Assembly (NCBI GenBank): GCA_964460615.1
Contig: CAYWPX010000006.1
Location: 37,830 to 101,829, forward strand
Source of the DNA: an uncultured Planctomycetia bacterium
Lineage (GTDB): Bacteria > Omnitrophota > Gorgyraeia > CAYWPX01
DNA: 64,000 bases
Direction: 5' to 3'
Positions 8,602 through 32,976 of the stretch are shown here, in pieces. Numbering within the stretch: position 1 is the stretch's first letter; each line of letters opens with the position of its first letter. The notes beneath the pieces were generated by a model. The model was not told the DNA's origin and searched no databases. It saw nothing but the letters and a program-made list of their open reading frames with translations. Made by a program: the position numbers and the translations under genes.

Positions 8602-10932
8602 CTACTCGTAGGAAATTGTCAAAACAAAAGTCTGAGAATCTTTTCCGAGATTTTTAGGAAAAGATGGAAATGGGGCAGCATTTTCAACATTCTGCCTAAC
8701 CAAGTTCCCGAGCTTACTATCGACCTCATTAAGTATTTTGGGCTCTCCCATCAGTTTTCCTTCGGGGTCAACTTTAAAATATACCTTAACATCCCCCTGC
8801 AAATTCTCTGTGGGAGAGTTGACCTTTGTATACCGCAAAACTTTATCCCTGACCACCTCATAATACCCATAACTTGAACCGCTCCTTAAAATATTTGATG
8901 GTTCACTTATAGGAATTTCTTTTGTAATAACTTTCGGGACTTCCTTAACTACCTCTTTAACTTTTACGACAGGTTTTTCCACAACTTTTTCTATTATCTG
9001 AGGTTTTGGCTCAGGGATCTTTATAACATGCTGTTTGGGTTTAAGCGGTTTTGGTATAAGATCGATCTCTTTTTCTTTTGTCGTTGAGGTTTTTGACATT
9101 TTTACTGTAGTTTCGACATTTGCAAGTGTAGCATTATACCTATCTCCGGTAATTATGTGAGGAGTAAGAAAGATCACTATCTCCTGTTGAGTAATAGTAT
9201 TATCAGTCTGCTGAAAAGCCCTGCCAATAAAAGGTATGTCGCCCAAAAACGGGATCTGTTTCTTTTGCTTATCATCAATATCCTTCATAAGCCCGCCTAT
9301 TACAATAGTAAGGCCGTCTTTGACCATAACGCTTGTCTCAACCTCTGATGTATTTACGATAGGTATTTTGACATTCGCTGTTGTGGTATAATTTGAGCTC
9401 GACGAACTGACTTCGGGCCTTATTTTCATAGTAATAAAATCTTCATTATTGATTGTAGGCGTGACATAGAGTTTGATGCCTACATCAACAAACGTTACGT
9501 TTGTCGCCGTTGTAGCCGTACCCGAAGCAGGCTGAACAACAGTATCAGTAGTATAGGGCTGCTTCGTACCAACAAGGATCTTAGCTTCCTGATTATTTAA
9601 GGCAACTATTCTCGGCCTTGACAGAGTCTTGGTTTTTCCGATAGACTGGAGTACTTGTATAAGCACCTGGTAGCCATCGCTTGTAAGAGTGCCCACCGCC
9701 AATTCTCCTATCGGCCCTGCTCCACCTGCAGCAGCATAACTAAAAAGACTGCTTAATGTAAGGCCATTATATTTTTTTAGGAGCTCCTGCCAATTGATAC
9801 CCATTTTCGTCTCGTCAGTCAAATTTACTTCCATTATTTCAGCATCTATCAATACTTCTTTATGTTTTTCATCAAATGCATTGATAACATTTTCGATCTC
9901 TTCTAACTTTTTTCTTGTATCAGTCACAACAATTTTATTAGTCCTCTCATCAACCTGCAAAATCCCCGAACCCTTGGTGATAAGATCGTTGATCTTTACC
10001 TTAAGATCCTCTGCCTTGGCATAGTCAAGGGAGAAGACCCTGGTTTCAGTCTCAGTGTCCAGCTTTGCCACCATGTCTTCCATTTCCATAACCTGAACCG
10101 GGTTGTCTATCAAAATTATGGTATTAGAAACATCATCGGTAATAATTTTGCCTATCCTTGACTTCATCTGATTGAGAAATTTTGCTACCTCACTTGCTTT
10201 GGCATATTGAAGCTTAATTATCCTGATCTTGGTTTTGTCATTGAATTTTTCACCATAAATCAGTTCATAATCACGCTCAGTCATAACATTTATTATGTCG
10301 CCTCTCTTATCAAAAGCCAATTCATTTGAGGCAAGAATAATCTCAAAAGCATCCCATAAATCAACATCATTCAAAAATATAGTTACTTTCCCTCTTACGT
10401 TTTTCCCTACCACTATATTCAGACTGCTTCTTGATGCAAGCATCTTTAAAACATCGACTACATCCACCCCCTTGAGATCCAAAGAAATCGTCCCATCATT
10501 TGTTTCCCTCAATTCTTTATTACTTTTAGCGGGAGGTTGGGATACGCTCGCCTTAGAGCCTGTTTGAGCACCTTTAGTGACGGTTTTTTCCGGGGTTTCT
10601 TTTGCTACAGGCTTATAAGCCGTAACAGCCGGGGTTACATTCGTGCTTGAAGGGGGCTCTTCCTCATACACTTCAGAGGTAATGGCTTCGGCAGGAGGTT
10701 CTTCCGTATTTATGATTTCGGGGCTTCCTGCCTCATCCGGCAAAGCACCTTCAGGGATCTGTCTTTGCCCAAAACCAGGCGGCATATTCGGCATCACAAA
10801 AGGAGGCATGATCATATTAGGAGAGCTTGGGATTGCCGGGCCTTCATTTAGAGTCTCTTGACAAAAAACACCCATCTCGCTAAATAAAAAAATAAAACAT
10901 AAGATAAAACTCAAAATTTTATTGGCCATCAA
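8602..10932 (-). CDS. gspD: Secretin (GspD/PilQ family) with a C-terminal TonB-like module
   Basis: Signal peptide followed by a ~120-aa Pro-rich low-complexity region. N0/STN-like domain (ISLDLKGVDVVDVLKMLAS...) and repeated secretin_N domains. Secretin C-domain (IPFLGDIPFIGRAFQQTDNTITQQEIVIFLTPHII). Then a K/P/V/E-rich rod (KPLKPKQHVIKIPEPKPQIIEKVVEKPVVKVKEV...) and a terminal domain matching TonB_C (GDVKVYFKVDPEGKLMGEPKILNE...NVENAAPFPSFP...TFVLTISYE). Confidence 0.85.
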   Translation of the reverse strand: MMANKILSFILCFIFLFSEMGVFCQETLNEGPAIPSSPNMIMPPFVMPNMPPGFGQRQIPEGALPDEAGSPEIINTEEPPAEAITSEVYEEEPPSSTNVTPAVTAYKPVAKETPEKTVTKGAQTGSKASVSQPPAKSNKELRETNDGTISLDLKGVDVVDVLKMLASRSSLNIVVGKNVRGKVTIFLNDVDLWDAFEIILASNELAFDKRGDIINVMTERDYELIYGEKFNDKTKIRIIKLQYAKASEVAKFLNQMKSRIGKIITDDVSNTIILIDNPVQVMEMEDMVAKLDTETETRVFSLDYAKAEDLKVKINDLITKGSGILQVDERTNKIVVTDTRKKLEEIENVINAFDEKHKEVLIDAEIMEVNLTDETKMGINWQELLKKYNGLTLSSLFSYAAAGGAGPIGELAVGTLTSDGYQVLIQVLQSIGKTKTLSRPRIVALNNQEAKILVGTKQPYTTDTVVQPASGTATTATNVTFVDVGIKLYVTPTINNEDFITMKIRPEVSSSSSNYTTTANVKIPIVNTSEVETSVMVKDGLTIVIGGLMKDIDDKQKKQIPFLGDIPFIGRAFQQTDNTITQQEIVIFLTPHIITGDRYNATLANVETTVKMSKTSTTKEKEIDLIPKPLKPKQHVIKIPEPKPQIIEKVVEKPVVKVKEVVKEVPKVITKEIPISEPSNILRSGSSYGYYEVVRDKVLRYTKVNSPTENLQGDVKVYFKVDPEGKLMGEPKILNEVDSKLGNLVRQNVENAAPFPSFPKNLGKDSQTFVLTISYE

Positions 10933-10960: not shown

Positions 10961-11644
10961 TTAAAGTACCAACTCGTACTGTTTACCATTAATATCTATG
11001 ATTACCTTGTTTTCAAAAATATCCGATATCGTCGCTTCGCCTATAGCATCGCCCTTATTCAAAAAATAACTTTTTTGGCCTTTTTTATCTTCAATAATCG
11101 CCTGAGGATTATCGCCTTTTACTATCCCCATAAGGCTAAGATTAGAGATTATTTCTTTAGCTATCTTCTCTTCGTCAATTTTTGGCTTTTCGACTTCTTC
11201 CGATTGTCCGCTTCCTGCTCTAAACAAATCTTTTGCATCAAGATTGTCAGAATAGTAAGAAAAAGGTTTTTCATCCCCCTGATTGGTTTGTTCGGTTTTT
11301 GGTATAGAACCCTCATTAACACTTACAAGCTCCAAGTCTTTAGTAAAAAGCGGCGTCTCTTCAGGAGACGACAACTCATAAATAACATAGCCTCCTATTG
11401 ACAGGAGAACAATAGCCAACACGATATTAAGATATTTTAATTCGCTTATTTTAGAAAGCCATTTTCTTTCGACATTGGACAACTTCTTCTGAAATACGCT
11501 TGCAGTATTAGAAGAGGCTTGAGGATTTTCAAATCTGCCAAAATAAGGATCATGCTTTTCAGTCGGAGACAGATTATCGCTTTCGCTCTTTTTAGCCCTG
11601 ATAACATTAAGAAGTTTTTCTTCCGGAGAGACGTCTTTTTTCAT
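10961..11644 (-). CDS. GspC/PilP-like secretin-interacting protein: cytoplasmic N-terminus, single TM helix, periplasmic HR-type beta domain
   Basis: TM helix LNIVLAIVLLSIGGYVIYEL. The C-terminus LSLMGIVKGDNPQAIIEDKKGQKSYFLNKGDAIGEATISDIFENKVIIDINGKQYELVL fits the PilP/GspC-HR pattern. It lies between the ExeA-like ATPase gene and the secretin gene. Confidence 0.45.
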   Translation of the reverse strand: MKKDVSPEEKLLNVIRAKKSESDNLSPTEKHDPYFGRFENPQASSNTASVFQKKLSNVERKWLSKISELKYLNIVLAIVLLSIGGYVIYELSSPEETPLFTKDLELVSVNEGSIPKTEQTNQGDEKPFSYYSDNLDAKDLFRAGSGQSEEVEKPKIDEEKIAKEIISNLSLMGIVKGDNPQAIIEDKKGQKSYFLNKGDAIGEATISDIFENKVIIDINGKQYELVL

Positions 11645-12462
11645 TTATATGCTACCTCATCGCTAGTAATCTCGTTAATAATTTCATCGTCAACAACTCT
11701 GCGATCATTCATAACAAGAAATTCTAAAGCATTGTGGCACATTATTGAAATGCGCCTTGGATACCCTAGGGTACTTTCGTGAATCAGTTTAATAGCACCG
11801 CCCGTAAATAAAGGCGTATTGCCCATATAACCGGCCTCTTTGAGACGGAATTCGATCATATTTCTGGTCTCGTTTTCATCTAAAGGGTTGATGATATATT
11901 TAAGTGTAACCCTATCCATGAAATTTTTTATTCTTCTTATTCTTGGCAAAAATTCCATCTGCGCGAAGATAACAAGCTGCAGAAGTTTATATTCATTAGT
12001 CTCATAATTTAGAAGCGTTCTTAATATCTCCAAAAATGTAGGACTAAGCTTTTGGCCTTCATCAATAAGAAGAACTATTGTCTTATTTTCTTCAACACCT
12101 TTTTGGAAAAGATATTTTTCTATCGACTCCTTATAATCAAGAGTAGAGCGAAAAAGCGGCTTAGCGCCAAACATCTTAGTAAGGCTGGATAAAAACTGGA
12201 ATTCGGATTTATAGGTTGGATCGAGGATCATATGAAAAATATAATTATCTTCGTTATTGAAAGACTGGAGAAGCGTTCTACCTAGGGTTGTCTTGCCGGT
12301 ACCAACATCGCCAAGAATAAGGCTAAGCCCTCTTCTTAATCTGATCCCTATCTCAAGCCTGTGAAGAGCTGTTTCATGAGCGCTTGACCTATAAAAAAAA
12401 GCAGGATCAGGGCTTGAAGAAAACGGCTCTTTCTTTAGGTTAAGCATTTCAAAATAACTCAT
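11641..12462 (-). CDS. ExeA/GspA/MshM-family AAA ATPase (short form without a periplasmic domain)
   Basis: Walker A GDVGTGKTTLGRTLLQSF and Walker B VLLIDEGQKL. The 273-aa length matches the short MshM-like members of the ExeA family. 4-nt overlap with the downstream gene. Confidence 0.7.
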   Translation of the reverse strand: MSYFEMLNLKKEPFSSSPDPAFFYRSSAHETALHRLEIGIRLRRGLSLILGDVGTGKTTLGRTLLQSFNNEDNYIFHMILDPTYKSEFQFLSSLTKMFGAKPLFRSTLDYKESIEKYLFQKGVEENKTIVLLIDEGQKLSPTFLEILRTLLNYETNEYKLLQLVIFAQMEFLPRIRRIKNFMDRVTLKYIINPLDENETRNMIEFRLKEAGYMGNTPLFTGGAIKLIHESTLGYPRRISIMCHNALEFLVMNDRRVVDDEIINEITSDEVAYK

Positions 12463-12507
12463 AAAACTCCTTGTACCTGTCAGTTTATTTCTAAATCAGA
12501 ACATTCT

Positions 12508-12753
12508 CTATAATAAATTAAGCTCCTCTTTAATAGCCGCGAGAGAATGGCCATGGATCCTTAAATCTCTTATAGTTTTTAGATTGTTAAGAGTAGAATT
12601 ATCAAAATACCTAAAATTACTGCGCGGGGTTTTTCCTATCTCTCTTATAAGGCCCAGTTTTAGATAGTACTTTATCGTATAAACTGATAAACCTGATAAA
12701 TATGCTAAATCTTTGATCAAATATATTTGATTGGTACTCAAATTACTCTCCAT
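12508..12753 (-). CDS. Mini MerR-family HTH transcriptional regulator (DNA-binding domain only, 81 aa)
   Basis: IYLIKDLAYLSGLSVYTIKYYLKLGLIREIGKTPRSNFRYFDNSTLNNLKTIRDLRIHGHSLAAIKEEL matches the MerR N-terminal wHTH plus the start of the dimerization helix. No effector domain. A nested three-half-site palindrome abuts the start codon. Confidence 0.65.
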   Translation of the reverse strand: MESNLSTNQIYLIKDLAYLSGLSVYTIKYYLKLGLIREIGKTPRSNFRYFDNSTLNNLKTIRDLRIHGHSLAAIKEELNLL

Positions 12754-12832: not shown

Positions 12833-13366
12833 TTATTTTATTAAAATTTTTGTCAAGTATAGAGTGCTTTTTAGCGTTCCAGCCTCTGCAACTTTGGCGG
12901 ATAAGCTCAATCTCTTTACCTTGATAAGCTTCTTTAAAGACTGCAGGTCATATATAAATTTTATTAATTCATTTATTCCGGACTCAGAACTGACTTCAAA
13001 AATAATCTCTTTGTAAGAAGGAGTATCTATTGAAGGCGAAGGTTTGATATTAATGATAGAAAAAGAATTGTTTTTTGCTACAGTCTCTATGTCAGCCAGA
13101 ACATTTGCCGCCTCCTCTTCCTCGCTCATACCGGATTTAATTGAAGAAAGGAATTTCTTGTACTCTTTTTCAATAGTATCTTTTTTGGAAAGCAGTTTGA
13201 TGTCCTTTTTTAATTTTATGGACTTTGACGTGATCTCTTTATCAAGATTCATCCATCTTTTGATCACTCTTTCGACAACCTGGGTATACAAAAGAAAGAT
13301 AGCCACAAACAAAATAGTCAGTACGGTTATTGTTTTTTCCCTTTTTGTTAAATTTGCAAAAACCAT
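12833..13366 (-). CDS. GspM/PilO-like bitopic inner-membrane assembly protein
   Basis: 177 aa with an N-terminal TM helix (ITVLTILFVAIFLLYTQVV) followed by a coiled-coil/periplasmic domain. Positioned directly downstream of the GspL-like gene, as gspM would be. Confidence 0.45.
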   Translation of the reverse strand: MVFANLTKREKTITVLTILFVAIFLLYTQVVERVIKRWMNLDKEITSKSIKLKKDIKLLSKKDTIEKEYKKFLSSIKSGMSEEEEAANVLADIETVAKNNSFSIINIKPSPSIDTPSYKEIIFEVSSESGINELIKFIYDLQSLKKLIKVKRLSLSAKVAEAGTLKSTLYLTKILIK

Positions 13367-13368
13367 AT

Positions 13369-14793
13369 TTACTCCGAATGATTTATAATAGTCAAAGGAC
13401 CGTTGATCTCAAAATCTGTCATATCCCGGCCTCTTATCCGTCTATTTGTTACATACTTAAGCTTAACTGATTCAAAATAATCGGAACTCTCAAGGCTCGT
13501 AACAAGCCTGAGAACGTCTGAAAGCGTAGAAGCATTCCCTTTTAACACTACTGATTTGCCTTCCTCATAATTAAGCGCCGTAAGATATATCCCTGCCGGC
13601 ATTATCTTGTAGACCTCTCTTATGATATCTATGCTGGACCCCCGAAGGTTCAGCTGATTTTTGACAATACTGAGATTTTTTGAAATCTTATCCAGCTTTG
13701 TGACTTCAGGTTCAAGAGATTTAATGCGGCTTTCGATGCCATTTAAAACCTCTGACTTCTCCCTTATCTTAAAATAAATTACCGACGAAAAACTGATTAT
13801 TGTCGCTAAAAGCAGGCTGGCGAATATAATAAAATTTCTTCTTAGCGAATGCATCTGCCTCCCGAATAAAATATCTTTTGGGAGAAAATTCAGGGTAAGC
13901 GCATTAGGATTAAACAAACATCCCATGATCGCATTGAACGACACCCCTTGAGCACTCTCGATATCTTTTGTTATTTCAACAGATAGGGAAAGATTTTCAA
14001 ACTGCGATACTTTTTTAACATCTATATCTATGCCTTTTTTGATGGCATCTATAATCGCCTCTAGGTCCTCTTCCTGGCCTGTGACAATAATTGACCCAAC
14101 TTTGGACTCTTTTTCGCTAGAATAAGTAGTGAATGTGAGGCGAACTTCGTCAACAAACTTATCGAGATTGTCTAATTTATAAGAGAAGCTTCTTGAAAAC
14201 TCAAAATTATTCTCTCCGACAATAATAATTTCGGCATTTGCACTATCCAAATCTATAACTGCGTAAGGCATCTTCATTGCGGATGTATCATACAATAAAA
14301 ATCTTGACCAAAGCGAATCCGTACTTATTGTAACCACATCTACATCCAGACCATTTTGATAGAAAAGATCTAATCTTTTTTTAATAACGTCCTGATGCGC
14401 TATGGCAAAAAAGACGCTTGAAAATCCATCCGAAAATTTCTCAATAATTTTAAAATCAGTTACTATCTCTTCTTTTGCATAGGGTATCTGCCTGGTAGCC
14501 TGAAGCTCCAGGATATTCCTTATCTCCAATTCCTCAAAAGACGGTATCTTCATGTTCCTTACGGTAAAATATCTTCGCGATATGCATAAAATTATCTGAG
14601 GTTTAGATTTTTTATAATGGTTTACAATATCTTTTAATGCTTTATAACCATCTCTTGGATCATTTGGGTTAAACTCTTTTTTACCAAGCTTAATAAGAAG
14701 GTTTTTATCATTCTTGTAGCTTAAGATAGCATATTTTATATAGCCATCTTCTATCTCAAAAGCCAAAATATATTTTTCTTTAATAAATAACAT
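13369..14793 (-). CDS. gspL: GspL-like protein (fused PilM-like cytoplasmic actin-fold domain, TM helix, PilN-like periplasmic domain)
   Basis: 474 aa. The cytoplasmic ~300 aa resemble PilM/GspL-cyto. Then a TM helix FIIFASLLLATIISFSSVIYF and a ~150-aa periplasmic domain. Position follows gspK. Confidence 0.6.
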   Translation of the reverse strand: MLFIKEKYILAFEIEDGYIKYAILSYKNDKNLLIKLGKKEFNPNDPRDGYKALKDIVNHYKKSKPQIILCISRRYFTVRNMKIPSFEELEIRNILELQATRQIPYAKEEIVTDFKIIEKFSDGFSSVFFAIAHQDVIKKRLDLFYQNGLDVDVVTISTDSLWSRFLLYDTSAMKMPYAVIDLDSANAEIIIVGENNFEFSRSFSYKLDNLDKFVDEVRLTFTTYSSEKESKVGSIIVTGQEEDLEAIIDAIKKGIDIDVKKVSQFENLSLSVEITKDIESAQGVSFNAIMGCLFNPNALTLNFLPKDILFGRQMHSLRRNFIIFASLLLATIISFSSVIYFKIREKSEVLNGIESRIKSLEPEVTKLDKISKNLSIVKNQLNLRGSSIDIIREVYKIMPAGIYLTALNYEEGKSVVLKGNASTLSDVLRLVTSLESSDYFESVKLKYVTNRRIRGRDMTDFEINGPLTIINHSE

Positions 14794-14817
14794 TAAGATT
14801 TGCCTTTATAATGATCT

Positions 14818-15834
14818 TTATTCTTCATGATAATAAAGATAGCTTAAGTTTGGGTCATCTTTTTTTACTACTATATCAACAATTCTTTTGACGCGGCTGT
14901 TTGCTACCAAACCAAGGACCCGTACCCTAAAAAAACTTGATTTAACCTTAAAATTAACCGACGCCTTATCATAGACTGTTTGATACGCTAATTCAAGATT
15001 TAAATCATTAACTACATCTATAGAGGTGCTATAAAAAACATGGTTAGATATATTTCCATCTTCAAAATTATTTCTTCTATAACTTATCATAGCATCTGCC
15101 AAAGTTTTTGCTATTGCTTCATTTGGCTCGGTGCTTTGTATCACTAGTTTTAATACTTCTCCTGAAACAGTGTTAATATTTACCTTTGAATCATCCCCAA
15201 AAACAGTTATATAGTCCTTAATTTTAGAATAGATCTCGGGGGTTACCCCTTTCACTAATATTAGCTCCTCAATAGCATCAAACTCTTTATGTTTTTCTTT
15301 ATATTTCAACTCTTCATAATAAGGGTCATCAGGAATCCCTGCAGTCCTCCAATTTATTACAGATGGAGCTATTTCAGGATTATCCAAAAAAAGAACCTTA
15401 AGCTGTTCCAATGAAGCCTTATTAATATTTATCTTACTATCCTCATCAGAAGCACCGTAAAGATAAATATCTTTACCGGCCTCATCTTTCCCGACTGAAT
15501 GAAGCGCCGTATAAGTCCCAATAACATTATTAGACTCATCCATCAGGCTAACATCTTTAAAAATAGATGTCTCATGCAGCGCATCAATACCATTGCTCCA
15601 AATCTCATTAAGCGAATCATAATCATTTGTATCCGCCTTAAGAACAGCAAGCCATTGGTTTACGCCACCTCTTGCCAAATATATGGCTTTTTGCTTATTT
15701 ATACTAAACTTCGACATCTTCAGTTCTAATGACAATCTAAATCCGATCCCGATAGCAAGCATAACTAAAATTGCCAGGACCCACAAACAAACTACTAAAA
15801 TTGTACCTCTATTATTGACTGAATTAAACCGCAT
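14818..15834 (-). CDS. gspK: Minor pseudopilin GspK-like
   Basis: N-terminal hydrophobic segment GTILVVCLWVLAILVMLAIGIGFRL, a large periplasmic domain and a helix-hairpin-helix-like stretch (ASLEQLKVLFLDNPEIAPSVINWRTAG) typical of GspK. Last gene of a G-H-I-J-K pseudopilin series. Confidence 0.65.
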   Translation of the reverse strand: MRFNSVNNRGTILVVCLWVLAILVMLAIGIGFRLSLELKMSKFSINKQKAIYLARGGVNQWLAVLKADTNDYDSLNEIWSNGIDALHETSIFKDVSLMDESNNVIGTYTALHSVGKDEAGKDIYLYGASDEDSKININKASLEQLKVLFLDNPEIAPSVINWRTAGIPDDPYYEELKYKEKHKEFDAIEELILVKGVTPEIYSKIKDYITVFGDDSKVNINTVSGEVLKLVIQSTEPNEAIAKTLADAMISYRRNNFEDGNISNHVFYSTSIDVVNDLNLELAYQTVYDKASVNFKVKSSFFRVRVLGLVANSRVKRIVDIVVKKDDPNLSYLYYHEE

Positions 15835-15840
15835 GGTATT

Positions 15841-16470
15841 TTATGTTTTTTCCCCTAATGTACCCGATGGGATGAAAATCATTTTTGTATAAACCTCTTC
15901 GCTTGCCTTATTATCTGGATTTTTAATTTTAAAAAAAACTTTAATCCCTCTTGGTACTATTTTTGAATTTTCCCATACACCAAGCCACTCGTAAGGATTA
16001 GCTTCATCTTTGGTATCATATGCATAAGAAAAGCTTACATCAGAAATATTTGATATGACTATCTCGCCCTTGGACTTATCAATCTCAAACCCTGCCAACT
16101 GGTCAGCCTGAGCTCTTTTAAAGCTTAATATCCCGCCCTTTTCCTCGTTAATAAAATAAGAGACAACACAAAGTTTTCTTCCGCCTTCCTGATTTAAAAG
16201 AGTCAAAAATCTTATTTCTTTTTCCAAGCCGTTAAAACCGAGAAGCGGGTCATCCTGGCTGTAGTTTATGGCATTTTTTAGCTCAACAGCCAAATCCTCC
16301 AAAGCCAATCTTAGGTCCTGGTTGAAGGCAATAGAATTTTCTCCCTGCCTCCAAACCCTGATACCGGTGCCAAATGCCGAATAGATTGAGATCGCTATAA
16401 TAGAAAATATAGTTATAGCTATCATTAATTCAACGAATGTAAAACCTTTGTTAGCAATGTGTTTTTTCAT
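15841..16470 (-). CDS. gspJ: Minor pseudopilin GspJ-like (prepilin-type N-terminus)
   Basis: MKKHIANKG|FTFVELMIAITIFSIIAISIYSAF prepilin leader with a GFTxxE processing site. Confidence 0.6.
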   Translation of the reverse strand: MKKHIANKGFTFVELMIAITIFSIIAISIYSAFGTGIRVWRQGENSIAFNQDLRLALEDLAVELKNAINYSQDDPLLGFNGLEKEIRFLTLLNQEGGRKLCVVSYFINEEKGGILSFKRAQADQLAGFEIDKSKGEIVISNISDVSFSYAYDTKDEANPYEWLGVWENSKIVPRGIKVFFKIKNPDNKASEEVYTKMIFIPSGTLGEKT

Positions 16471-16878
16471 CTAAGGTTCGGTCTTTTCTTTTAAGAATGT
16501 TGCATAAGCAAGGTTTCCCTCAGAGTCGCCGCTTTTCCAGGAAATTTTTGGGATAACTTTATATATCTTATATGTTGATGCCGTTTCCGGATCCGGTATC
16601 GTAGAAACAACAGTCCACTTATATAAATCATCCTGAGGGAATGTCCCATCAAAACTGCCGGCGGTTATCCCCTTGTCATTATAAGGCCACATCGCCTCCT
16701 CCATAAATAACGTAGCTTTGAAATATTCCCTGGAAACTTTAAAGGCTTTTATTGAAGTGGAAAATGACCTGAATACAAAAACGATCCCTATCGATATCAC
16801 AAGGATGCTTACCAAAACCTCCAGCAAAAGAAAGCCGTGATTATTTGATCTCAGGATCTTCTTTTGAAATATTGACAT
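16471..16878 (-). CDS. gspI: Minor pseudopilin GspI-like
   Basis: Leader ...NNHG|FLLLEVLVSILVISIGIVFVF with a class III signal-peptide motif. 135 aa, typical for GspI. Confidence 0.6.
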   Translation of the reverse strand: MSIFQKKILRSNNHGFLLLEVLVSILVISIGIVFVFRSFSTSIKAFKVSREYFKATLFMEEAMWPYNDKGITAGSFDGTFPQDDLYKWTVVSTIPDPETASTYKIYKVIPKISWKSGDSEGNLAYATFLKEKTEP

Positions 16879-17356
16879 AACCCGCCTTTAAACTTGTACT
16901 TAAATATAAACTCTCATCTTTGGACGATAATTTTATACTGATCTTATCAGATCTACCATCGGGATAAAAATTAGCTAAATTTTTCTCTCCTTCAATTTCC
17001 ATAGAATCCGGAATCTTAAAAACCGCACCGAATCTGTCATTTTTAAAAGCCTTGAATTCCGAGCCCTGAAGATCCTGAGCGGTAAGCCAATATGTCTTTT
17101 TTGTAAAATCAAAATTTATCCTCAAAGAGTTGCTTTCCACTATCGCACGCTCCTGAGCAAACCGAATAAGTTTTGAAATATTCAAAGCGCAGTTATTGAG
17201 CTCTAAACTCCTATACGTCCTACCGAAAAGCGGTATAGACCCGGCTATTATTATCAAAATTATAACGGTAATAATAGCTAGCTCTATAAGAGTAAACCCC
17301 GTTATCTTTTTTTTACTGATTTTCAGCAGAGTCTTTCTCCCAATTCGTGACATCAT
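16841..17356 (-). CDS. gspH: Minor pseudopilin GspH-like (start moved to an internal Met)
   Basis: The ORF-track start at 17464 would overlap gspG by ~150 nt. The sequence from MSRIGRKTLLKISKKKITG|FTLIELAIITVIILIIIAG gives a prepilin leader plus hydrophobic helix. The exact start is uncertain. Confidence 0.5.
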   Translation of the reverse strand: MMSRIGRKTLLKISKKKITGFTLIELAIITVIILIIIAGSIPLFGRTYRSLELNNCALNISKLIRFAQERAIVESNSLRINFDFTKKTYWLTAQDLQGSEFKAFKNDRFGAVFKIPDSMEIEGEKNLANFYPDGRSDKISIKLSSKDESLYLSTSLKAGYVNISKEDPEIK

Positions 17357-17750
17357 CTCCGCCGCCACCGTCATCTTTACCATCGGGCCCGAATGAATAG
17401 AGATCATAATCGACACCATGTGTTGAGGGAACGGCATATTTATACTGATTACCCCAGGGGTCAAGAGGTTCTTTTTTCAGGTAAGGTCCTTTCCAATTTT
17501 TGTATTTTGTTGAATCAGGATTCTGTCTTAAGGCCTTAAGCGCCTGCTCTGATGTAGGGTACGAACCGCAATCAAGCTCAAACAGATCCAACGCTAAGGC
17601 AATATTTGATTTTATGTCGGCTTCGCATGCAGCAACTCTGGCTTGTTCGCTCCTGCCTGCAAGCCTAGGCACAACCATAGCAACAAGGATCCCTATTATT
17701 ATTACTACAAGCATTAATTCAACAAGCGTAAATCCTTTTTTGTTTTTCAT
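17313..17750 (-). CDS. gspG: Major pseudopilin GspG
   Basis: MKNKKG|FTLVELMLVVIIIGILVAMVVP...SYPTSEQALKAL...LDPWGNQYKY...YDLYSFGPDGKDDGGGGDDVTNW closely matches the GspG consensus, including the Ca-binding loop. Confidence 0.9.
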   Translation of the reverse strand: MKNKKGFTLVELMLVVIIIGILVAMVVPRLAGRSEQARVAACEADIKSNIALALDLFELDCGSYPTSEQALKALRQNPDSTKYKNWKGPYLKKEPLDPWGNQYKYAVPSTHGVDYDLYSFGPDGKDDGGGGDDVTNWEKDSAENQ

Positions 17751-17837
17751 TTTTATTTTACTCCTTTGAAATCAGTTTTTTAAAATTTTTATTTTTGTTT
17801 CTTACTCATAACTATAAACTAATAACTCCTAACTTAC

Positions 17838-19052
17838 TCATCTTGCCATAAAATTAATCTGGAATATCGGCAAAAGCATTGAAACAACAATAAAACCTAC
17901 AACTAACCCTAAAGATAAGATCAGTAACGGCTCCAGCAAAGAGGTCATTACCCTTATGGTCTTATCAACCTGTTTTTCGTAGGAGTCCGCTACTTTAGCC
18001 AACGAACTTTCCAGTAAACCCCCTTCTTCTCCTACGGCAATCATATTTATAACGAACAGAGGGAAATTTTTACCTTTTGAAAGCCCATCGGTTAAGGTGG
18101 AGCCTGTTTGAACCTCTTTAAGGGCGGTCCTGACGTCATTTCTCAAGACATCGTTTGTTAGGGTATTGCTCACTACGTCGAGCGCCTCTATCATTGGAAC
18201 TCCGTTGGACAAAAGAGTGCTTAATGTCCTGGCAAACCTTGAGATTTCGGTTCTTTTTGTCAGTTCTCCAAAAATAGGGACCTTTAATTTAAAATTATCA
18301 AATGCAAGCCTGCCTTCTTTTGTTTTGATAGCTCTATTACCGATAAAATAAATTATTAAAATCCCGCTGAGCGCTAAATACCAGAATTTCTTAAAAAACA
18401 TGCTTATTGCAACCAAAATCATCGTCGGAATAGGAAGAGATTGCCCAAGGTCTTGGAACATGACAACGATCCTCGGGATAACAAATGTCAAAAGAACAAA
18501 TATGGTAGCCAAACCTACAAATGCCATCAAGGCCGGGTATGCCATCGCTGATTTGACCTTTGTCTGCAGCTCCAGCTGTTTTTCTGAAAATTCCGCAAGT
18601 CTTGCCAAAACTCCTTCCAATGCGCCGCCTGTTTCACCCGATCTGATCATACTTACAAATAAATTTGAAAAAACTTCCGGATGCTTACTCATCGCCTCTG
18701 AAAGAGTATTACCGTCTCTTACGAAGTCCCTCATCTGGTTTACGATTGAGGCAAGATTCTTATTTTCCGTCTGCTTAGTAAGAACATCCAGTGCTTTTAC
18801 AAGCGGAAGCCCTGCCCCTAATAGATCCGATAACTGCCTGGTAAATACACTTACGTCAGATAATTTTGCCCTATTAAAAAAAGAGAGAGGGCCTAAGGAT
18901 TTATTCTTAGAGATATCCTCTCTTTTGACCAAAAGAGGAAAGTAACCCATATCGGTTACTTTCCTTATTGCACCGTTTTCGCTTTCTGCTTCAATAATTC
19001 CTTCAACAAAATCTTTTGGGCCTGTCTTAGCTTTATAATAAAACTTTGGCAT
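17838..19052 (-). CDS. gspF: Inner-membrane platform protein GspF/PilC family
   Basis: 404 aa with two GspF repeats (3 TM). C-terminus PLLILSLGLVVGFIVVSMLLPIF. Confidence 0.9.
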   Translation of the reverse strand: MPKFYYKAKTGPKDFVEGIIEAESENGAIRKVTDMGYFPLLVKREDISKNKSLGPLSFFNRAKLSDVSVFTRQLSDLLGAGLPLVKALDVLTKQTENKNLASIVNQMRDFVRDGNTLSEAMSKHPEVFSNLFVSMIRSGETGGALEGVLARLAEFSEKQLELQTKVKSAMAYPALMAFVGLATIFVLLTFVIPRIVVMFQDLGQSLPIPTMILVAISMFFKKFWYLALSGILIIYFIGNRAIKTKEGRLAFDNFKLKVPIFGELTKRTEISRFARTLSTLLSNGVPMIEALDVVSNTLTNDVLRNDVRTALKEVQTGSTLTDGLSKGKNFPLFVINMIAVGEEGGLLESSLAKVADSYEKQVDKTIRVMTSLLEPLLILSLGLVVGFIVVSMLLPIFQINFMAR

Positions 19053-19089
19053 TTTTTGCCTGTTTGTTTATGGTTTTTGGCTGACAGCT

Positions 19090-19130
19090 TCGCCTGTTAA
19101 CGGACAGGCAGATCTGATAGCTGATAGCTA
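19090..19130. repeat. Intergenic repeat family A, degenerate copy 4
   Basis: cgcctgttaacggacaggcag...tgatagctgatagcta (G-for-C variant of the CATAGCT unit). Between the gspE stop and gspF start. Confidence 0.5.
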
Positions 19131-19133
19131 TAT

Positions 19134-20831
19134 TTATATCTCTTCAGCTACTCTAACAACTTCTTCCGGCGTCGTAATACCCATGACTATCTTTTCCCAG
19201 CCGTCCTGACGAAGAGTACGCATACCTTTTTCCATTGCGACTTTTTTTATCTGGTCGCTTGAAGCGCGTTTTAAGATCAGCTCTTTTATCGCTTCATCTA
19301 TAACAAGGATTTCGTAAATAGCTGTTCTTCCGCGATACCCGGTGAATTTGCACGCATCACAGCCTTTCCCTTCAAATATCCTTATCTTTTCTATATGCGA
19401 AGGCTTAACACCAAGCTCTTTTACCATCTCAGCTTTTGGCTGAACCTCCCTTTTACACTCACTGCATATAACCCTGACAAGTCTCTGTGCTATTATACAC
19501 TCAACTGAACTCGAAACGAGAAACGGCTCTACTCCCATATCGAGTAACCTCGTCACCGCCCCAGGGGCGTTATTTGTATGAAGCGTGCTGAAAACAAGAT
19601 GGCCAGTCAAAGCGACTCTGATGGTTATCTCAGCGGTCTCATAATCCCTGACCTCTCCGACCATCATTACATCAGGATCGTGCCTTAGCATACTTCTTAG
19701 GCCTGCCGCAAATGTAAAACCAATCTTTGGATTGACCTGTATCTGCGTGATACCTTTTATCTGATACTCAATAGGGTCTTCGATAGTTATAATTTTTTTA
19801 TCCGGGCTGTTTATTTTGCTCAAGGATGCATACAAGGTTGTGGTCTTACCGCTGCCTGTCGGCCCGGTTACAAAAATAATCCCGTGCGGTTTTTTGATCA
19901 TATCCTCAAGTATCTCAAGATCTTTTTTGAATAACCCGAGATTTTCAAGACCAAATAAGACATTGCCCGACAAAAGCCTAATAACAACACTCTCTCCGTG
20001 CGCTGAAGGCAGAATAGATACCCTGAGGTCAAGGTCCACGTCTCCCACCTTAACGCTTATACGCCCATCCTGCGGCAAGCGCCTTTCGGCGATGTTCAGT
20101 GATGACATGATTTTGATTCTTGAAACTATCGCAGATTTAAAATGCTTTATTGTGGGCGGGATCGGCACATCATGCAAAATACCGTCTATTCTGTATCTTA
20201 TCTTCAATTCGTCTTCATAGGGTTCAATGTGAATATCAGTACTTCTGTCACGGTAGGCCTGAAGCAATATCTGATTAACAAATTTTATTATCGAGGCATC
20301 TTCTGCCATTTCCTCAATATCTTCCGTCTTTTTAAATTCCGCCGGGAGAGCTTCTCCTACCGTATCCTCCATCATACTTTCTATGGTTTCAGCGCCTACT
20401 CCATAATATTTTTTTATTGCTTCCAAAATATCTTTCTCTCCGCACAATACAGGCGTGATTTCATATCCTAAGAGAAGCTTTATATCATCCAATGTCTGAA
20501 TATCCAATGGGTCTGTGACCCCCAGATTCAGATTGTTATCTTTAAAACTGATCGGCATCAACTTATAATGGCAGGCAAATTTGGCAGGAACCTTTTCTAT
20601 TACCTTGGGATCTATGGATGTGTTTTTTAGCTTAACATACCGGATATTCAGATGTTCAGCCAGCAAAGGGACAAGCTCTTCTTCGCTGATAAAACCCAGC
20701 TTGACAAGCGTAGTCCCTAAAAATTCATTGGTTTTTTTGTGCTCTTTTAAGGCTTTATCCAGCTTATCGGCAGTTATAATTCCTCGATCTAAAAGAAACT
20801 GTCCCAGAAGAACTGTCTTTCGCAGAATCAT
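19134..20831 (-). CDS. gspE: Secretion ATPase GspE/PilB family
   Basis: N-terminal GspE-N domains, Walker A VTGPTGSGKTTTL, Asp/His boxes, and a tetracysteine motif CSECKREV...CDACKFTGYRGR. Confidence 0.9.
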   Translation of the reverse strand: MILRKTVLLGQFLLDRGIITADKLDKALKEHKKTNEFLGTTLVKLGFISEEELVPLLAEHLNIRYVKLKNTSIDPKVIEKVPAKFACHYKLMPISFKDNNLNLGVTDPLDIQTLDDIKLLLGYEITPVLCGEKDILEAIKKYYGVGAETIESMMEDTVGEALPAEFKKTEDIEEMAEDASIIKFVNQILLQAYRDRSTDIHIEPYEDELKIRYRIDGILHDVPIPPTIKHFKSAIVSRIKIMSSLNIAERRLPQDGRISVKVGDVDLDLRVSILPSAHGESVVIRLLSGNVLFGLENLGLFKKDLEILEDMIKKPHGIIFVTGPTGSGKTTTLYASLSKINSPDKKIITIEDPIEYQIKGITQIQVNPKIGFTFAAGLRSMLRHDPDVMMVGEVRDYETAEITIRVALTGHLVFSTLHTNNAPGAVTRLLDMGVEPFLVSSSVECIIAQRLVRVICSECKREVQPKAEMVKELGVKPSHIEKIRIFEGKGCDACKFTGYRGRTAIYEILVIDEAIKELILKRASSDQIKKVAMEKGMRTLRQDGWEKIVMGITTPEEVVRVAEEI

Positions 20832-30321: not shown

Positions 30322-31022
30322 AGTTTCCTTACGACTGCAATGTAATTCAATGGGTAGAGTTTTCTCATTCCGAATACCTTATCGGCATAAAAAATAATAA
30401 CTGATAATGCCGCTGATAATAAATAAATAACTTTTCCCAAGAACGGTATTTTTGAAAAAAGAGAATTCATTAAAATAAAAAAGGGGGTCATGGTAAAACA
30501 TATTATTCCGCCGCTTTGGCAATACTCTATTATCTCCAGCTTACCTTCGCACAAGTTTTTGAAACCATATATTGTAAATCTCTGATAATCCTCCGGCTCT
30601 CCGTGAATATACGATAAATGAGGAAAAGAAATAATAGCCTTACCGTCTTTTTTTAATACCCTTGAAATTTCACAAATAATAGATCGGGGGTCTTTGGTAT
30701 GCTCCAGGACTTGTATCGATATCGCCCTATCAACCTTTTCATTTCCAATTGGCAATAATCCGCCATCGCCTACTATACTTAGCTTAGAGGAATTTATGGC
30801 TATATCCAAAGAGAAATACTCTTTTGAGAATTTTTCAATTACAAATTTCCAAAAAAGCCTTCCGGCTCCCACATCTACGACGGTTGCGCCATCGATATGC
30901 TTTTTTAAGACCGGCAATAGATCGGCATAAATACAATAGTGACTAGGCGATAAGAAAAAATATCCTACTTTACCGGCGTAACTATCTTCGGTATCTTTCC
31001 ACATCTTTTTTAAGTTAATCAT
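30318..31022 (-). CDS. Class I SAM-dependent methyltransferase
   Basis: Motif I ATVVDVGAGRLFW, FSLDI, and a KDGKAIISFPH post-II region. 4-nt overlaps with both neighbours. Confidence 0.65.
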   Translation of the reverse strand: MINLKKMWKDTEDSYAGKVGYFFLSPSHYCIYADLLPVLKKHIDGATVVDVGAGRLFWKFVIEKFSKEYFSLDIAINSSKLSIVGDGGLLPIGNEKVDRAISIQVLEHTKDPRSIICEISRVLKKDGKAIISFPHLSYIHGEPEDYQRFTIYGFKNLCEGKLEIIEYCQSGGIICFTMTPFFILMNSLFSKIPFLGKVIYLLSAALSVIIFYADKVFGMRKLYPLNYIAVVRKL

Positions 31023-32976
31023 TTTTTATGCTCAGATTTATTCCTGCTTTTTGGAGATCGTCTCCCCTGAATATCCAGGCCTGCGTAAAACCTCTAAAGG
31101 CTATAGTAAAAACCGGCTTAACATCATAAGGAAAATCAACTCCATTTTGGGTCACAGAAGATCTGTTAATAACATAATAATCCCTCTCGGAATATGTGGA
31201 GTTTTTATCAATGGGTTGTATATTCAACGCTTTAGAGCCTACCCACTCACCTTTATAACTATAATACAAATTTATTTTCCCGCAATCAATTTTATTAGCT
31301 TTGCAAATTTTCTCAATTTTTTTTCCAGCGAGCATAACCTCCTCACCCCACCCCTGCCAGGGGCCATTTATCCTTCCGGGTTCAGGATTATTAGAATACG
31401 TTCTGGGATAGCTGGACCATATCGGCCTGAATGGAGCAAAAAGCGGCCCAAAAGGAAGTACCTCTAAGAACAGTACTATTAAAATAAGCGAAACGGCTAT
31501 TCCTTTTTTTCTTCTCTCCAGCTCTCCGAAAACAAAATCCAAGACAATAAGACAAAACAAGGCAAATAAAAGTACAGGAATATTAAAATACCTGTTTACG
31601 ACCGGAGTTTCGGTAATCCCAAAAATAACCGGGCATAACATAACAAAGAAAAACATCACATCCCAACCGGCAAAATATTTCTTCCCGGAATTTTTGTTCT
31701 TGACCACCGTTACAACAAATAAAGCCAACACGATCCAGAAAACTGTCGGAATAGCATTAACAAAAACCGATACGGCAAGTCCGATGTAAGATAATATATG
31801 CTGAAGCTTGCTAGCTGCATCAAAATGCCAGGTAACGCCATTCATAGAGAATGGCGGAATATAAAGACCTGATTTTATCGGATGAAAAGGAGCCCAGTAA
31901 GCATTTATAATAAAAGTAGATGAAATCCCCAGTAGTAATAAAGGAAGCCATAAAAATAAATTAATCATTTTAATTTTTAGTATAAACTTTTGGATCAGGC
32001 TTGCCGACTTGAAAAATAAAATCATTGAAACAAAAATTACTACAAAATATGCTACGAAAAAAAATAATGGATTCAATATTGCCAGTTCGTTTACCCCTCC
32101 GAATAATACAATAAACAAACGGATCAAAGGCCAAACCCAGGCAAATATCGGAAAGCAAACCGATGAAAAACTGAAGTCCGGGAACCCATCCTCCTTTGAA
32201 AACCATACAACAAAAAATGTCGCTGCCAGGATAAATAAACCCAATCCCAATGAAGCTAAAGAAGCCTTAAATAAAGATATCCACTTGTCTTTTTTATCTT
32301 TGTTAGCTGAAAAAAGATAGCATAAATTCACCGATGCCATCAGAAAAAACGGCGAGGATATAAGCTTTTCCTGTGAGGCAAATACTGAGATCAGAACCGC
32401 TAAAATAGCATTCTTAAGGCTGTTATTCTTTAAAGATATGAATATATACACAACAGTCAATATGGACAGCAGCATCGAAAAAAGATCATAAGTAAAGACC
32501 TTAAAAGCTATCATGTTGGTAGGAAGCAAGAAGATAAAGTACATGAACAACATAGAAAAGTAAACTTTATTTTTCTCCTGGATAAAATTCTTTAGCAAAA
32601 GATTATATATAACCATTACCAATAAAAACCCAAAAAACCAGTGCATTGATTTTGCTAATATTACTAATAAACTTAATGACGGCTTAATAAAACTTTGAAG
32701 AATTACAAATGGAACCCCTATAAATAAATCGGTAGTTCTTAAGGCATAAAAATCCCATTGCGTCAATGGTAACTTTTTAAGAAAAATAATTTCAGGAAGC
32801 GTAAAATATTCATCTATAGTAAGAAATTGTGTAACAGACTCCAATGACAAATAAATTGGCATCATAGATATGAGCGTTAAAAAAGTAGCCTTCTTATTCG
32901 ATCCAAGGCCAGATCTAAAAATAAAAAAAAGAATTATTAAGGAAACAATAAACACGGCTAATTCAAAAAAATTCAT
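31015..32976 (-). CDS. Large polytopic membrane protein (~14 TM helices plus a ~200-aa C-terminal soluble domain); possible GT-C glycosyltransferase or polymerase
   Basis: Hydrophobicity pattern only. No catalytic motif recognised. It sits inside the glycosyltransferase cluster and overlaps its neighbours by a few nt. Confidence 0.35.
   Translation of the reverse strand: MNFFELAVFIVSLIILFFIFRSGLGSNKKATFLTLISMMPIYLSLESVTQFLTIDEYFTLPEIIFLKKLPLTQWDFYALRTTDLFIGVPFVILQSFIKPSLSLLVILAKSMHWFFGFLLVMVIYNLLLKNFIQEKNKVYFSMLFMYFIFLLPTNMIAFKVFTYDLFSMLLSILTVVYIFISLKNNSLKNAILAVLISVFASQEKLISSPFFLMASVNLCYLFSANKDKKDKWISLFKASLASLGLGLFILAATFFVVWFSKEDGFPDFSFSSVCFPIFAWVWPLIRLFIVLFGGVNELAILNPLFFFVAYFVVIFVSMILFFKSASLIQKFILKIKMINLFLWLPLLLLGISSTFIINAYWAPFHPIKSGLYIPPFSMNGVTWHFDAASKLQHILSYIGLAVSVFVNAIPTVFWIVLALFVVTVVKNKNSGKKYFAGWDVMFFFVMLCPVIFGITETPVVNRYFNIPVLLFALFCLIVLDFVFGELERRKKGIAVSLILIVLFLEVLPFGPLFAPFRPIWSSYPRTYSNNPEPGRINGPWQGWGEEVMLAGKKIEKICKANKIDCGKINLYYSYKGEWVGSKALNIQPIDKNSTYSERDYYVINRSSVTQNGVDFPYDVKPVFTIAFRGFTQAWIFRGDDLQKAGINLSIKND

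What the first reader, a model, noticed from the sequence alone, without database searches (positions are those of the whole stretch)
8602..9090. Secretin carrying a C-terminal TonB-like periplasm-spanning module (Pro/Lys/Val-rich rod plus TonB_C-like domain)
After a normal secretin C-domain, the protein continues with a (KP/EP/KV)-rich extended segment that resembles the TonB proline-rich rod. The terminal ~85 aa follow the TonB C-terminal domain pattern residue by residue (compare E. coli TonB EGQVKVKFDVTPDGRVDNVQIL...NAMRRWRYEP with GDVKVYFKVDPEGKLMGEPKIL...NVENAAPFPSFP). A TonB-like periplasmic arm anchored in the outer membrane via a secretin would invert the usual TonB topology. It could tether the secretin to peptidoglycan or to an inner-membrane partner in place of a GspC PDZ domain, which the adjacent GspC-like protein lacks. 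The N-terminus also has an unusually long Pro-rich spacer before the N0 domain.
Basis: partly seen in the sequence, partly recalled or inferred. Interest (0 to 1): 0.7.

Follow-up and report, generated by a model that had tools for sequence, protein, structure and literature searches.

The report
Secretin with TonB-type C-terminal domain
The outer-membrane pore protein (secretin) of this Omnitrophota bacterium's type II secretion-like machine ends in a flexible tether carrying a TonB/TolA-type binding domain; this fusion is conserved across the phylum, seems undescribed in the literature, and probably fastens the pore to the cell envelope rather than transmitting energy.

The parts
10861..10932 (-). 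Signal peptide of the secretin (residues 1-24, ...GVFC|QE). The annotated public start is the ATG at 10929.
   Evidence: Hydrophobic N-terminal helix at residues 4-21 in the AF2 model. Homologues show Sec-type A-x-A|Q-like sites and no lipobox. P0001 is 775 aa.
10495..10860 (-). Disordered Pro/Glu-rich N-terminal spacer before N0 (residues 25-146).
   Evidence: P 16% and E 13%. pLDDT is below 50 for residues 22-143. The length before N0 varies from 27 to 181 aa in the family, with no conserved motif.
9874..10494 (-). Periplasmic N0 domain and two Secretin_N ring domains (residues 147-353).
   Evidence: Pfam Secretin_N 9e-24 in two stretches, with weak N0 and STN hits. AF2 gives confident alpha/beta domains at 148-226, 235-291 and 295-353.
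9142..9873 (-). Secretin beta-barrel and gate domain (residues 354-597), ending in the conserved ...FLTPHII motif.
   Evidence: Pfam Secretin 1.6e-48. phmmer hits XcpQ 5wln at 2e-42 and PilQ 6ve2 at 4e-39. Foldseek ranks PulD, GspD and ExeD first.
8881..9141 (-). Flexible charged linker (residues 598-684). It has one short helix at 601-606 and no S-domain.
   Evidence: pLDDT is below 50 for residues 605-679. Composition is K 18, V 14, E 12, I 12 and P 12%. Family linker lengths are 28-121 aa. The [KE]P density is the highest in the family.
8605..8880 (-). C-terminal TonB/TolA-type domain (residues 685-776), with helix 687-704, strand 713-721, helix 739-752 and strand 767-775. The protein ends ...ISYE.
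   Evidence: Y690, F719 and G725 are invariant, and P731, P754, F755, F758, P759 and F769 are nearly invariant, across 82 full-length homologues.
10961..11644 (-). GspC/GspB-like protein. It has a cytoplasmic N-terminus of about 70 aa, one transmembrane helix and a C-terminal T2SSC homology region, with no PDZ. Its start overlaps the end of the AAA_22 gene by 4 bp.
   Evidence: Pfam T2SSC 8.8e-9 and no PDZ hit. TIGR01713 GspC scores only 25 bits against a cut-off of 101.6. The gene is conserved upstream of both tailed and tail-less secretins.
11641..12462 (-). GspA/ExeA-like AAA_22 ATPase (273 aa) with no membrane or peptidoglycan-binding part.
   Evidence: AAA_22 5e-17. TIGR03015 4.9e-52, below its cut-off.
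12508..12753 (-). Small MerR-family protein embedded in the operon.
   Evidence: MerR_1 3.2e-13. It sits at the same position in L001 and L002.
12833..20831 (-). Rest of the T2SS-type operon: PilO/GspM (12833-13366), PilM-PilN fusion equivalent to GspL (13369-14793), GspK (14818-15834), three minor pseudopilins (15841-17464), GspG (17313-17750), GspF (17838-19052) and GspE (19134-20831).
   Evidence: Pfam hits. The same gene order occurs in L001-L004.

Best explanation
Shown: this is the outer-membrane secretin of the conserved Omnitrophota T2SS-type machine. Where classical T2SS secretins have an S-domain, each subunit continues into a disordered, charged tether of variable length that ends in a TonB/TolA-superfamily globular domain.

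Inferred: the secretin multimer (12-15 subunits in solved secretins) would display a ring of these domains on the periplasmic side, just under the outer membrane, outside the barrel. The protein has a cleavable signal peptide instead of TonB's N-terminal membrane anchor, and the window has no ExbB/ExbD or TolQ/TolR gene. The domain therefore cannot be energised by the proton-motive force. I propose it acts as a passive binding module. It probably uses the beta-strand-augmentation surface that TonB and TolA use for the TonB box and the TolB N-terminus. Its role would be to fasten the secretin to an envelope ligand close to the outer membrane, either peptidoglycan or a peptidoglycan- or outer-membrane-associated protein. 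That would stabilise or position the pore in place of an S-domain/pilotin pair, or of the peptidoglycan-binding module that the local GspA-like ATPase lacks. The ligand is not identified.
For: - Domain identity.
- The fusion is conserved: 120 of 120 closest homologues and 72 of 80 GTDB species representatives, plus one frameshifted copy.
- No S-domain: only one short helix follows the barrel.
- T2SS class: the operon has GspG, GspK and a GspC-like gene, and T2SS secretins are the best fold matches.
- No ExbBD, TolQR or PilT in the window, and no other tail-type domain in the window.
- Linkers as short as 28 aa (contour at most 10.6 nm, rms about 3 nm) keep the domain near the outer membrane in part of the family.
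- The domain can be multiplied: P0121 is a secretin with three tandem tails.
- TonB_C-superfamily domains also occur on other proteins that lack a secretin core. These include lipoprotein P0228 (80 bits to the tail profile), the TolC-like OEP protein P0239 with three copies, and proteins with 2-6 tandem copies, most of those inspected having a signal peptide. Multi-copy arrays are typical of modules that bind polymers or scaffolds.
- The GspA-like ATPase lacks the periplasmic peptidoglycan-binding part known from ExeA (ExeA background in PMC4098917).
Against: - No binding partner was identified, and there is no direct evidence of peptidoglycan binding.
- Fold searches do not return LysM, OmpA-like or other established peptidoglycan-binding folds.
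- The tail domain's pI is not uniform (4.5-10.2), so no simple electrostatic ligand is implied.
- Five species lack the tail yet keep the same operon, so it is dispensable.
- The domains of the tandem-repeat and OEP proteins score only about 8-54 bits each against the tail profile. That is no closer than a genuine TonB (one search compared), so they support the general theme only loosely.
- Periplasmic topology is inferred by analogy and was not tested.
Confidence: 0.45

Rival explanations
1. Rosetta-stone reading. The TonB-type domain docks onto part of the secretion machine itself: the STN-like N0 domain of the same or a neighbouring secretin subunit, or the GspC/GspB-like protein. It would form a collar or a gate-coupling strut. 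This would be the covalent equivalent of the TonB3 (PocAB)-PilQ link proposed in Pseudomonas.
For: - The N0 domain belongs to the 'Secretin and TonB N-terminus' (STN) fold (weak STN hit).
- PMC5285504 reports that TonB3/PocAB is needed for type IVa pilus assembly and speculates that TonB3 contacts PilQ N0.
- The title of PMC8811193 links TonB2 to natural transformation in Acinetobacter.
- N-terminal spacer length and C-terminal linker length correlate (Spearman 0.46).
- The window protein's 75-87-aa linker could reach the base of the channel (contour about 30 nm).
Against: - The shortest linkers (28-34 aa) probably cannot reach N0 from the outer-membrane-proximal C-terminus.
- There is no conserved TonB-box-like motif ahead of N0.
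- The tail does not covary with the GspC-like gene.
- The length correlation may only reflect shared ancestry.
Confidence: 0.2
2. Self-piloting or assembly module. The tail replaces the S-domain/pilotin system and helps target, oligomerise or protect the secretin during outer-membrane insertion, with no lasting structural role afterwards.
For: - It sits exactly where the S-domain lies in T2SS secretins, and no S-domain is present.
- No pilotin-like lipoprotein gene is visible in the operon.
- The tail is dispensable in some lineages, as pilotins are in some systems.
Against: - TonB/TolA domains have no known chaperone or piloting role.
- Tail-less relatives show no compensating extra gene within about 4 kb. 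The exception is an unrelated 689-aa ORF in L069.
Confidence: 0.15
3. Surface display. As reported for type IV pilus secretins, the C-terminus is extracellular, so the tether and the TonB-type domain are exposed on the cell surface. They might then serve in adhesion of these host-dependent nanobacteria.
For: - PMC4453517 detected the C-termini of BfpB and PilQ on the cell surface.
- By sequence the secretin core is almost as close to PilQ (4e-39) as to XcpQ (2e-42), and TIGR02515 PilQ slightly outscores the GspD model.
- The alignment proteins are PilM/N/O-like.
- The abstract of bioRxiv 10.64898/2026.06.07.730766 describes a host-dependent, episymbiotic lifestyle for Omnitrophota.
Against: - The operon has GspG, GspK and GspC-type genes, and the window has no PilT.
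- T2SS secretins rank first in the fold search.
- In the same study the T2S and T3S secretin C-termini were not surface-exposed.
- All characterised TonB/TolA domains act in the periplasm.
Confidence: 0.1
4. Artefact. A frameshift or assembly error has joined a secretin gene to a separate TonB gene.
For: None found. One relative (L072) shows the opposite case, a tail split off by a frameshift or stop.
Against: - The reading frame is continuous.
- An identical protein is present in two sources, NCBI and Logan.
- The same architecture is found in 120 of 120 homologues and in 72 of 80 species.
- The tail has no TonB N-terminal anchor of its own.
Confidence: 0.01

Closest known systems
TonB / HasB C-terminal domain (Pfam TonB_C PF03544; PDB 6sly, 5lw8, 2m2k, 1xx3, 2grx)
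   Different: There is no N-terminal membrane anchor and no ExbB/ExbD partner in the window. The domain is attached to an outer-membrane protein, so the polarity is reversed. The linker is disordered and variable rather than a conserved (EP)n(KP)n rod. The window sequence itself falls just below the TonB_C gathering score.
TolA domain III (PDB 2x9a, 1tol, 6s3w, 4g7x)
   Different: Sequence profiles favour TonB_C and TonB_2 over TolA. There is no TolQ/TolR, TolB or Pal context here, and the domain is anchored in the outer membrane.
T2SS secretins with an S-domain and pilotin (PulD-PulS 6hcg, GspD-AspS 5zdh)
   Same: These are the best full-length fold matches. The N0, ring-domain and secretin-barrel order is the same, and the gene sits in a GspC-to-GspM-type operon.
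   Different: The S-domain is replaced by the linker plus a TonB-type domain, and no pilotin gene is seen. The GspD and PilQ equivalog models both score below their cut-offs, so this is a distinct secretin subfamily.
Peptidoglycan-anchoring accessories of secretin machines: PilQ AMIN domains, TsaP and FimV LysM domains, and ExeA/GspA with ExeB (PMC5285504, PMC4098917)
   Same: The functional logic is the same: secretin systems repeatedly acquire a module that ties the pore to the cell wall. The operon also has a GspA-like ATPase and a GspB/C-like partner.
   Different: The fold is different (TonB/TolA rather than AMIN, LysM or PG_binding_1). The module is fused in cis at the C-terminus. Peptidoglycan binding is not demonstrated for this domain.
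PocAB-TonB3 of Pseudomonas aeruginosa and TonB2 of Acinetobacter baumannii (PMC5285504, PMC8811193)
   Same: These give a genetic link between a TonB-family protein and secretin-dependent pilus or competence machines.
   Different: Those are separate, inner-membrane-anchored TonB paralogues with a motor. Here the TonB-type domain is part of the secretin and has no motor.

Membership tests
Secretin (Pfam PF00263; GspD/PilQ superfamily) | C-terminal secretin beta-barrel domain above the Pfam gathering score | tested here: met
   165 bits against a cut-off of 27.5, E 1.6e-48. XcpQ hits at 2e-42.
Secretin (Pfam PF00263; GspD/PilQ superfamily) | Periplasmic N0 plus Secretin_N ring domains and a signal peptide | tested here: met
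   Secretin_N scores 83.9 bits in two stretches. N0 and STN are sub-threshold at 21 and 19.5 bits, but AF2 gives confident domains at 148-353 and a signal helix at 4-21.
T2SS secretin GspD (NCBIfam TIGR02517 equivalog) | Score at or above the curated equivalog cut-off | tested here: not met
   261.3 bits against a cut-off of 351.35. The PilQ model TIGR02515 scores 267.4 against 284.35. This is a distinct subfamily lying between the two.
T2SS secretin GspD (NCBIfam TIGR02517 equivalog) | Encoded with GspC, E, F, G, K and L/M-type genes | tested here: met
   The synteny is conserved in L001-L004.
T2SS secretin GspD (NCBIfam TIGR02517 equivalog) | C-terminal S-domain that binds a pilotin | tested here: not met
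   Only one 6-residue helix follows the barrel, and then the chain is disordered. No pilotin gene is in the operon.
TonB_C / TolA-TonB C-terminal superfamily (PF03544, PF13103) | Profile match above the gathering score | tested here: inconclusive
   Window tail alone: TonB_C 24.1 bits (cut-off 24.6) and TonB_2 23.8 bits (cut-off 22). In the full protein the scores are 20 and 19.5. Family level: 56 of 63 tails match TonB_C (best 4e-10), and the profile hits the H. pylori TonB C-terminal domain at 3.3e-7.
TonB_C / TolA-TonB C-terminal superfamily (PF03544, PF13103) | alpha-beta-beta-alpha-beta fold of the C-terminal domain | tested here: met
TonB energy transducer (functional TonB) | N-terminal inner-membrane anchor that couples to ExbB/ExbD | tested here: not met
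   The N-terminus is a cleavable signal peptide followed by secretin domains. No ExbB/ExbD or TolQ/TolR gene is in the 64-kb window. The rest of the genome was not available.
TonB energy transducer (functional TonB) | Conserved proline-rich periplasm-spanning spacer | tested here: not met
   The linker is 11-12% Pro here and 8% pooled across the family. Its length is 28-121 aa, it is mostly acidic in homologues, and it is predicted to be disordered.
TonB energy transducer (functional TonB) | Binds the TonB box of an outer-membrane receptor | not testable with these tools
   No multimer prediction or binding assay was available. No conserved TonB-box-like motif was found ahead of N0.

The most novel reading that the evidence does not exclude
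The fusion records a general physical partnership between TonB-type C-terminal domains and secretins, which would explain why TonB3/PocAB and TonB2 are needed for pili and competence in proteobacteria. In Omnitrophota, motor-independent TonB_C modules attached to secretins, TolC-like channels and lipoproteins would form a previously unrecognised system that tethers outer-membrane components to the envelope, taking the role that Lpp, Pal or OmpA-type anchors play elsewhere.
Probability: 0.15. Interest if true: 0.8.

Novelty: new variant of a known kind. Interest (0 to 1): 0.55.

Why it matters
- Secretins are the outer-membrane gates of T2SS, T4P, T3SS and filamentous-phage export. How they are positioned and held in the envelope differs between lineages (S-domain with pilotin, AMIN, LysM partners, ExeAB).
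- A phylum-wide replacement of the S-domain by a TonB/TolA-type domain adds a new solution to that problem. It also shows this fold used without a motor and with reversed membrane polarity.
- It offers a concrete handle on the unexplained genetic links between TonB paralogues and pilus or competence secretins.
- On the practical side, public annotation currently names several of these secretins 'TonB family protein' or 'energy transducer TonB'. That misleads metabolic reconstructions of Omnitrophota, for example by implying TonB-dependent uptake.

Tried and rejected
- A word-indexed homology search with the tail alone (residues 596-776) returned nothing, even though an identical protein is in the database. 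This is a limit of the index, not evidence of absence.
- A single-sequence phmmer search of the tail against the PDB found only chance hits. A family profile was needed.
- The search for related loci with the tail alignment failed for lack of a conserved 7-10-column stretch. It was redone with a full-length alignment.
- Covariation of the tail with the GspC-like, AAA_22 and MerR genes: none found.
- A separately encoded tail near tail-less secretins: none on either strand.
- A conserved TonB-box-like motif in the N-terminal spacer: none found.
- Uniform charge of the tail domain as a clue to its ligand: pI ranges from 4.5 to 10.2, which is uninformative.
- Literature searches for a prior description listed none. 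The TolA/TonB evolution survey PMC12204202 mentions neither secretins nor Omnitrophota.
- The frameshift or fusion-artefact explanation is rejected.
- The tools returned no model coordinates or PAE, so I could not assess intramolecular docking of the tail in the full-length model.
Full report
**What is there**

The finding lies at the 3' end of a 776-codon ORF on the minus strand, 8602-10932. Pfam identifies a strong Secretin domain (1.6e-48), two Secretin_N stretches and weak N0/STN matches. At the extreme C-terminus it gives near-full-length but borderline matches to TonB_C (20 bits in the full protein, cut-off 24.6) and TonB_2 (19.5 bits, cut-off 22). NCBIfam places the core between PilQ (267 bits) and GspD (261 bits). 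Both scores are below their equivalog cut-offs.

The gene is the last in a complete minus-strand operon, in this order:
- GspE
- GspF
- GspG
- three minor pseudopilins
- GspK
- a PilM-PilN fusion (the GspL equivalent)
- PilO/GspM
- a small MerR protein
- a GspA/ExeA-like AAA_22 ATPase
- a 227-aa GspC/GspB-like protein with a T2SSC homology region and no PDZ
- the secretin

The rest of the window is housekeeping and contains no ExbB/D, TolQ/R or PilT gene. It also contains no second copy of the tail-type domain.

**Is the TonB-like tail real?**

On the single sequence the evidence is marginal. phmmer against the PDB finds nothing relevant, and the isolated tail scores 24.1 bits on TonB_C and 23.8 bits on TonB_2.

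The family settles the question. A full-length search found 1,445 relatives at E of 1e-10 or better. The best 120 carry Candidatus Omnitrophota/Omnitrophica names wherever a source names them, and many have precomputed TonB_C or TonB_2 hits. All 120 carry the same C-terminal module of about 90 aa, and in 119 it ends within 5 residues of the C-terminus.

I aligned 63 non-redundant tails (alignment A1). That profile hits the H. pylori TonB C-terminal domain at 3.3e-7 and 1.7e-6, and HasB at 6.7e-4. Individually, 56 of the 63 tails match TonB_C, the best at 4e-10.

The domain therefore belongs to the TonB/TolA C-terminal superfamily. By sequence it is nearer TonB. By structure it is slightly nearer TolA-III, because of its long first helix.

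**Not an artefact, and how widespread it is**

In GTDB species representatives, 313 loci encode relatives. The best 80 are nearly all labelled Omnitrophota. The rest carry NCBI Planctomycetia or Planctomycetales labels, apart from one labelled only 'bacterium' and one Candidatus Aceula lacicola. Among those 80:
- 72 secretins have one tail.
- One (L072) has its tail split off by a frameshift or stop.
- Two are cut off by contig ends.
- Five truly end 12-28 aa after the barrel.

Tail-less loci keep the same GspC-like, AAA_22 and MerR neighbours. They have no separate tail gene nearby. Operon order is conserved, and the MerR/AAA_22 pair is optional.

NCBI names some of these secretins 'TonB family protein' or 'energy transducer TonB'. 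The domain is thus visible to pipelines, but the proteins are misnamed. I found no paper describing the fusion.

**Anatomy of the whole protein**

The full-length AF2 model (pLDDT 75.6) shows these parts:
- a signal helix at 4-21
- a disordered spacer at 22-143, with 16% Pro
- N0 and two ring domains at 148-353
- the barrel at 359-594
- a single short helix at 601-606
- a disordered linker at 605-679
- the TonB-type domain at 687-775, with pLDDT above 92

There is no S-domain. The full model matches T2SS secretins best (PulD 7e-25, GspD, ExeD, EpsD) and PilQ less well (1e-21 to 6e-17). By sequence, XcpQ (2e-42) and PilQ (4e-39) are close to each other.

**The 'rod'**

The window's linker is K, V, E, I and P-rich, with 11-12% Pro overall and 23% in its richest 30-aa stretch. 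It has the highest [KE]P density of the family. Across 118 homologues, however, the linker is 28-121 aa long (median 66) and mostly acidic (median pI 5.2), with only 8% Pro pooled. It is a variable flexible tether and not a conserved TonB-like rod. N-terminal spacer length and linker length correlate (rho 0.46), but shared ancestry could explain that.

**How it probably works**

What is shown: a motor-less TonB/TolA-type domain tethered to the C-terminus of a T2SS-class secretin, conserved across a phylum.

What is inferred, from established knowledge of T2SS secretin structures: the S-domain packs on the outside of the barrel beneath the outer membrane. In addition, PMC4453517 found that T2S and T3S secretin C-termini are not surface-exposed. 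On that basis the tails hang into the periplasm as a ring around the pore.

The shortest linkers have a contour length of at most about 10.6 nm and an rms extension of about 3 nm. The function shared by the whole family is therefore likely to lie near the outer membrane and not at the inner membrane or the channel entrance.

With no anchor and no ExbBD, the domain cannot transduce energy. I propose that it is a passive binding module that fastens the pore to peptidoglycan or to an envelope protein.

Circumstantial support comes from the exhaustive profile search, which found 12,077 proteins at E of 1e-3 or better and 1,250 at 1e-10 or better. Among the best 150:
- 48 are secretin fusions, one of them with three tandem tails (P0121).
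- 57 are single-domain sequences, mostly short.
- 45 are non-secretin proteins with 2-5 tandem copies (up to 6 in one cluster member).
- P0228 is a lipoprotein with an in-family tail (80 bits).
- P0239 is a TolC-type OEP protein with three N-terminal TonB_C domains.

Most of the multi-copy proteins I inspected have signal peptides. The only one whose genomic context I examined (P0127) has no ExbBD nearby.

One caveat applies. The individual domains of the tandem and OEP proteins score only about 8-54 bits against the tail profile. That is no closer than a real TonB, so they illustrate a superfamily theme and not the same subfamily.

**Rivals**

1. The tail docks on N0/STN or on the GspC-like protein. 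This is a Rosetta-stone version of the proposed TonB3-PilQ contact (PMC5285504).
2. The tail acts as a self-piloting or assembly module in place of the S-domain and pilotin.
3. The tail is surface-exposed, as reported for T4P secretin C-termini (PMC4453517).
4. The fusion is an artefact. This is refuted.

None of rivals 1-3 is excluded. The tools gave no multimer prediction and no model coordinates.

**Verdict**

This is a new variant of a known kind (a new secretin architecture and a new use of the TonB/TolA fold). It is conserved and apparently undescribed, and its ligand is unknown.

Noticed in passing
window 11641-12753 (-): A small MerR-family gene and a GspA/ExeA-like AAA_22 ATPase (273 aa, with no membrane or peptidoglycan-binding part) sit inside the T2SS operon. 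The end of the ATPase gene overlaps the start of the GspC/GspB-like gene by 4 bp. The trio is conserved in 44 of 49 tailed loci that had enough upstream sequence, but it is absent from L003.
   Followed up: partly
P0121 (851 aa, Logan contig of 3.3 kb): A secretin homologue with three tandem copies of the tail domain (73-84 bits each) after the barrel.
   Followed up: partly
P0239 / L086 6001-8391: A TolC-type OEP outer-membrane channel protein with three N-terminal TonB_C domains. It is encoded next to a giant ORF of more than 2,294 aa. No signal peptide is seen at the called start.
   Followed up: partly
P0122/P0266, P0123, P0126, P0127 (L005 8001-9047), P0129, P0131: Proteins made of 3-6 tandem TonB_C/TonB_2 domains. 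The seven whose N-termini I inspected have signal peptides. The one context examined (P0127) has no ExbBD nearby. One of them (P0131) is labelled as Candidatus Melainabacteria.
   Followed up: partly
P0228 (315 aa): A lipoprotein (lipobox ...FISGC, Pfam Lipoprotein_16) carrying a C-terminal tail that scores 80 bits against the secretin-tail profile. It is therefore in the same subfamily but on a different outer-membrane-anchored carrier.
   Followed up: no
L069 1510-3576: In one tail-less locus, an uncharacterised ORF of about 689 aa is inserted between the GspC-like gene and the secretin.
   Followed up: no
L072 1421-3490: The secretin tail is separated from the barrel by a frameshift or stop. 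The tail lies in the next ORF and scores 86 bits. This is a probable pseudogenisation or sequencing error.
   Followed up: no
P0022, P0033, P0037, P0044, P0050, P0095, P0096: NCBI names these full-length secretins 'TonB family protein' or 'energy transducer TonB'. This is a systematic misannotation driven by the C-terminal domain.
   Followed up: yes
window 1-64000: Essentially every long ORF in the window is on the minus strand, and GC skew is negative throughout (cumulative skew falls monotonically). This is consistent with a single replichore with strong gene-strand bias.
   Followed up: no
window 31015-32976 (-): A 653-aa ORF with no Pfam hit sits inside a cluster of glycosyltransferase, methyltransferase, asparagine synthase and PMT-like genes.
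   Followed up: no
window 10929-10932: The ORF list starts the secretin at a TTG (776 aa). The public protein P0001 starts at the adjacent ATG (775 aa), which is the likelier start.
   Followed up: partly
window 16841-17464 (-): This minor-pseudopilin ORF, as listed (TTG start, 207 aa), overlaps gspG. Its N_methyl motif is at residues 52-76, so the real start is probably about 45 codons downstream.
   Followed up: no
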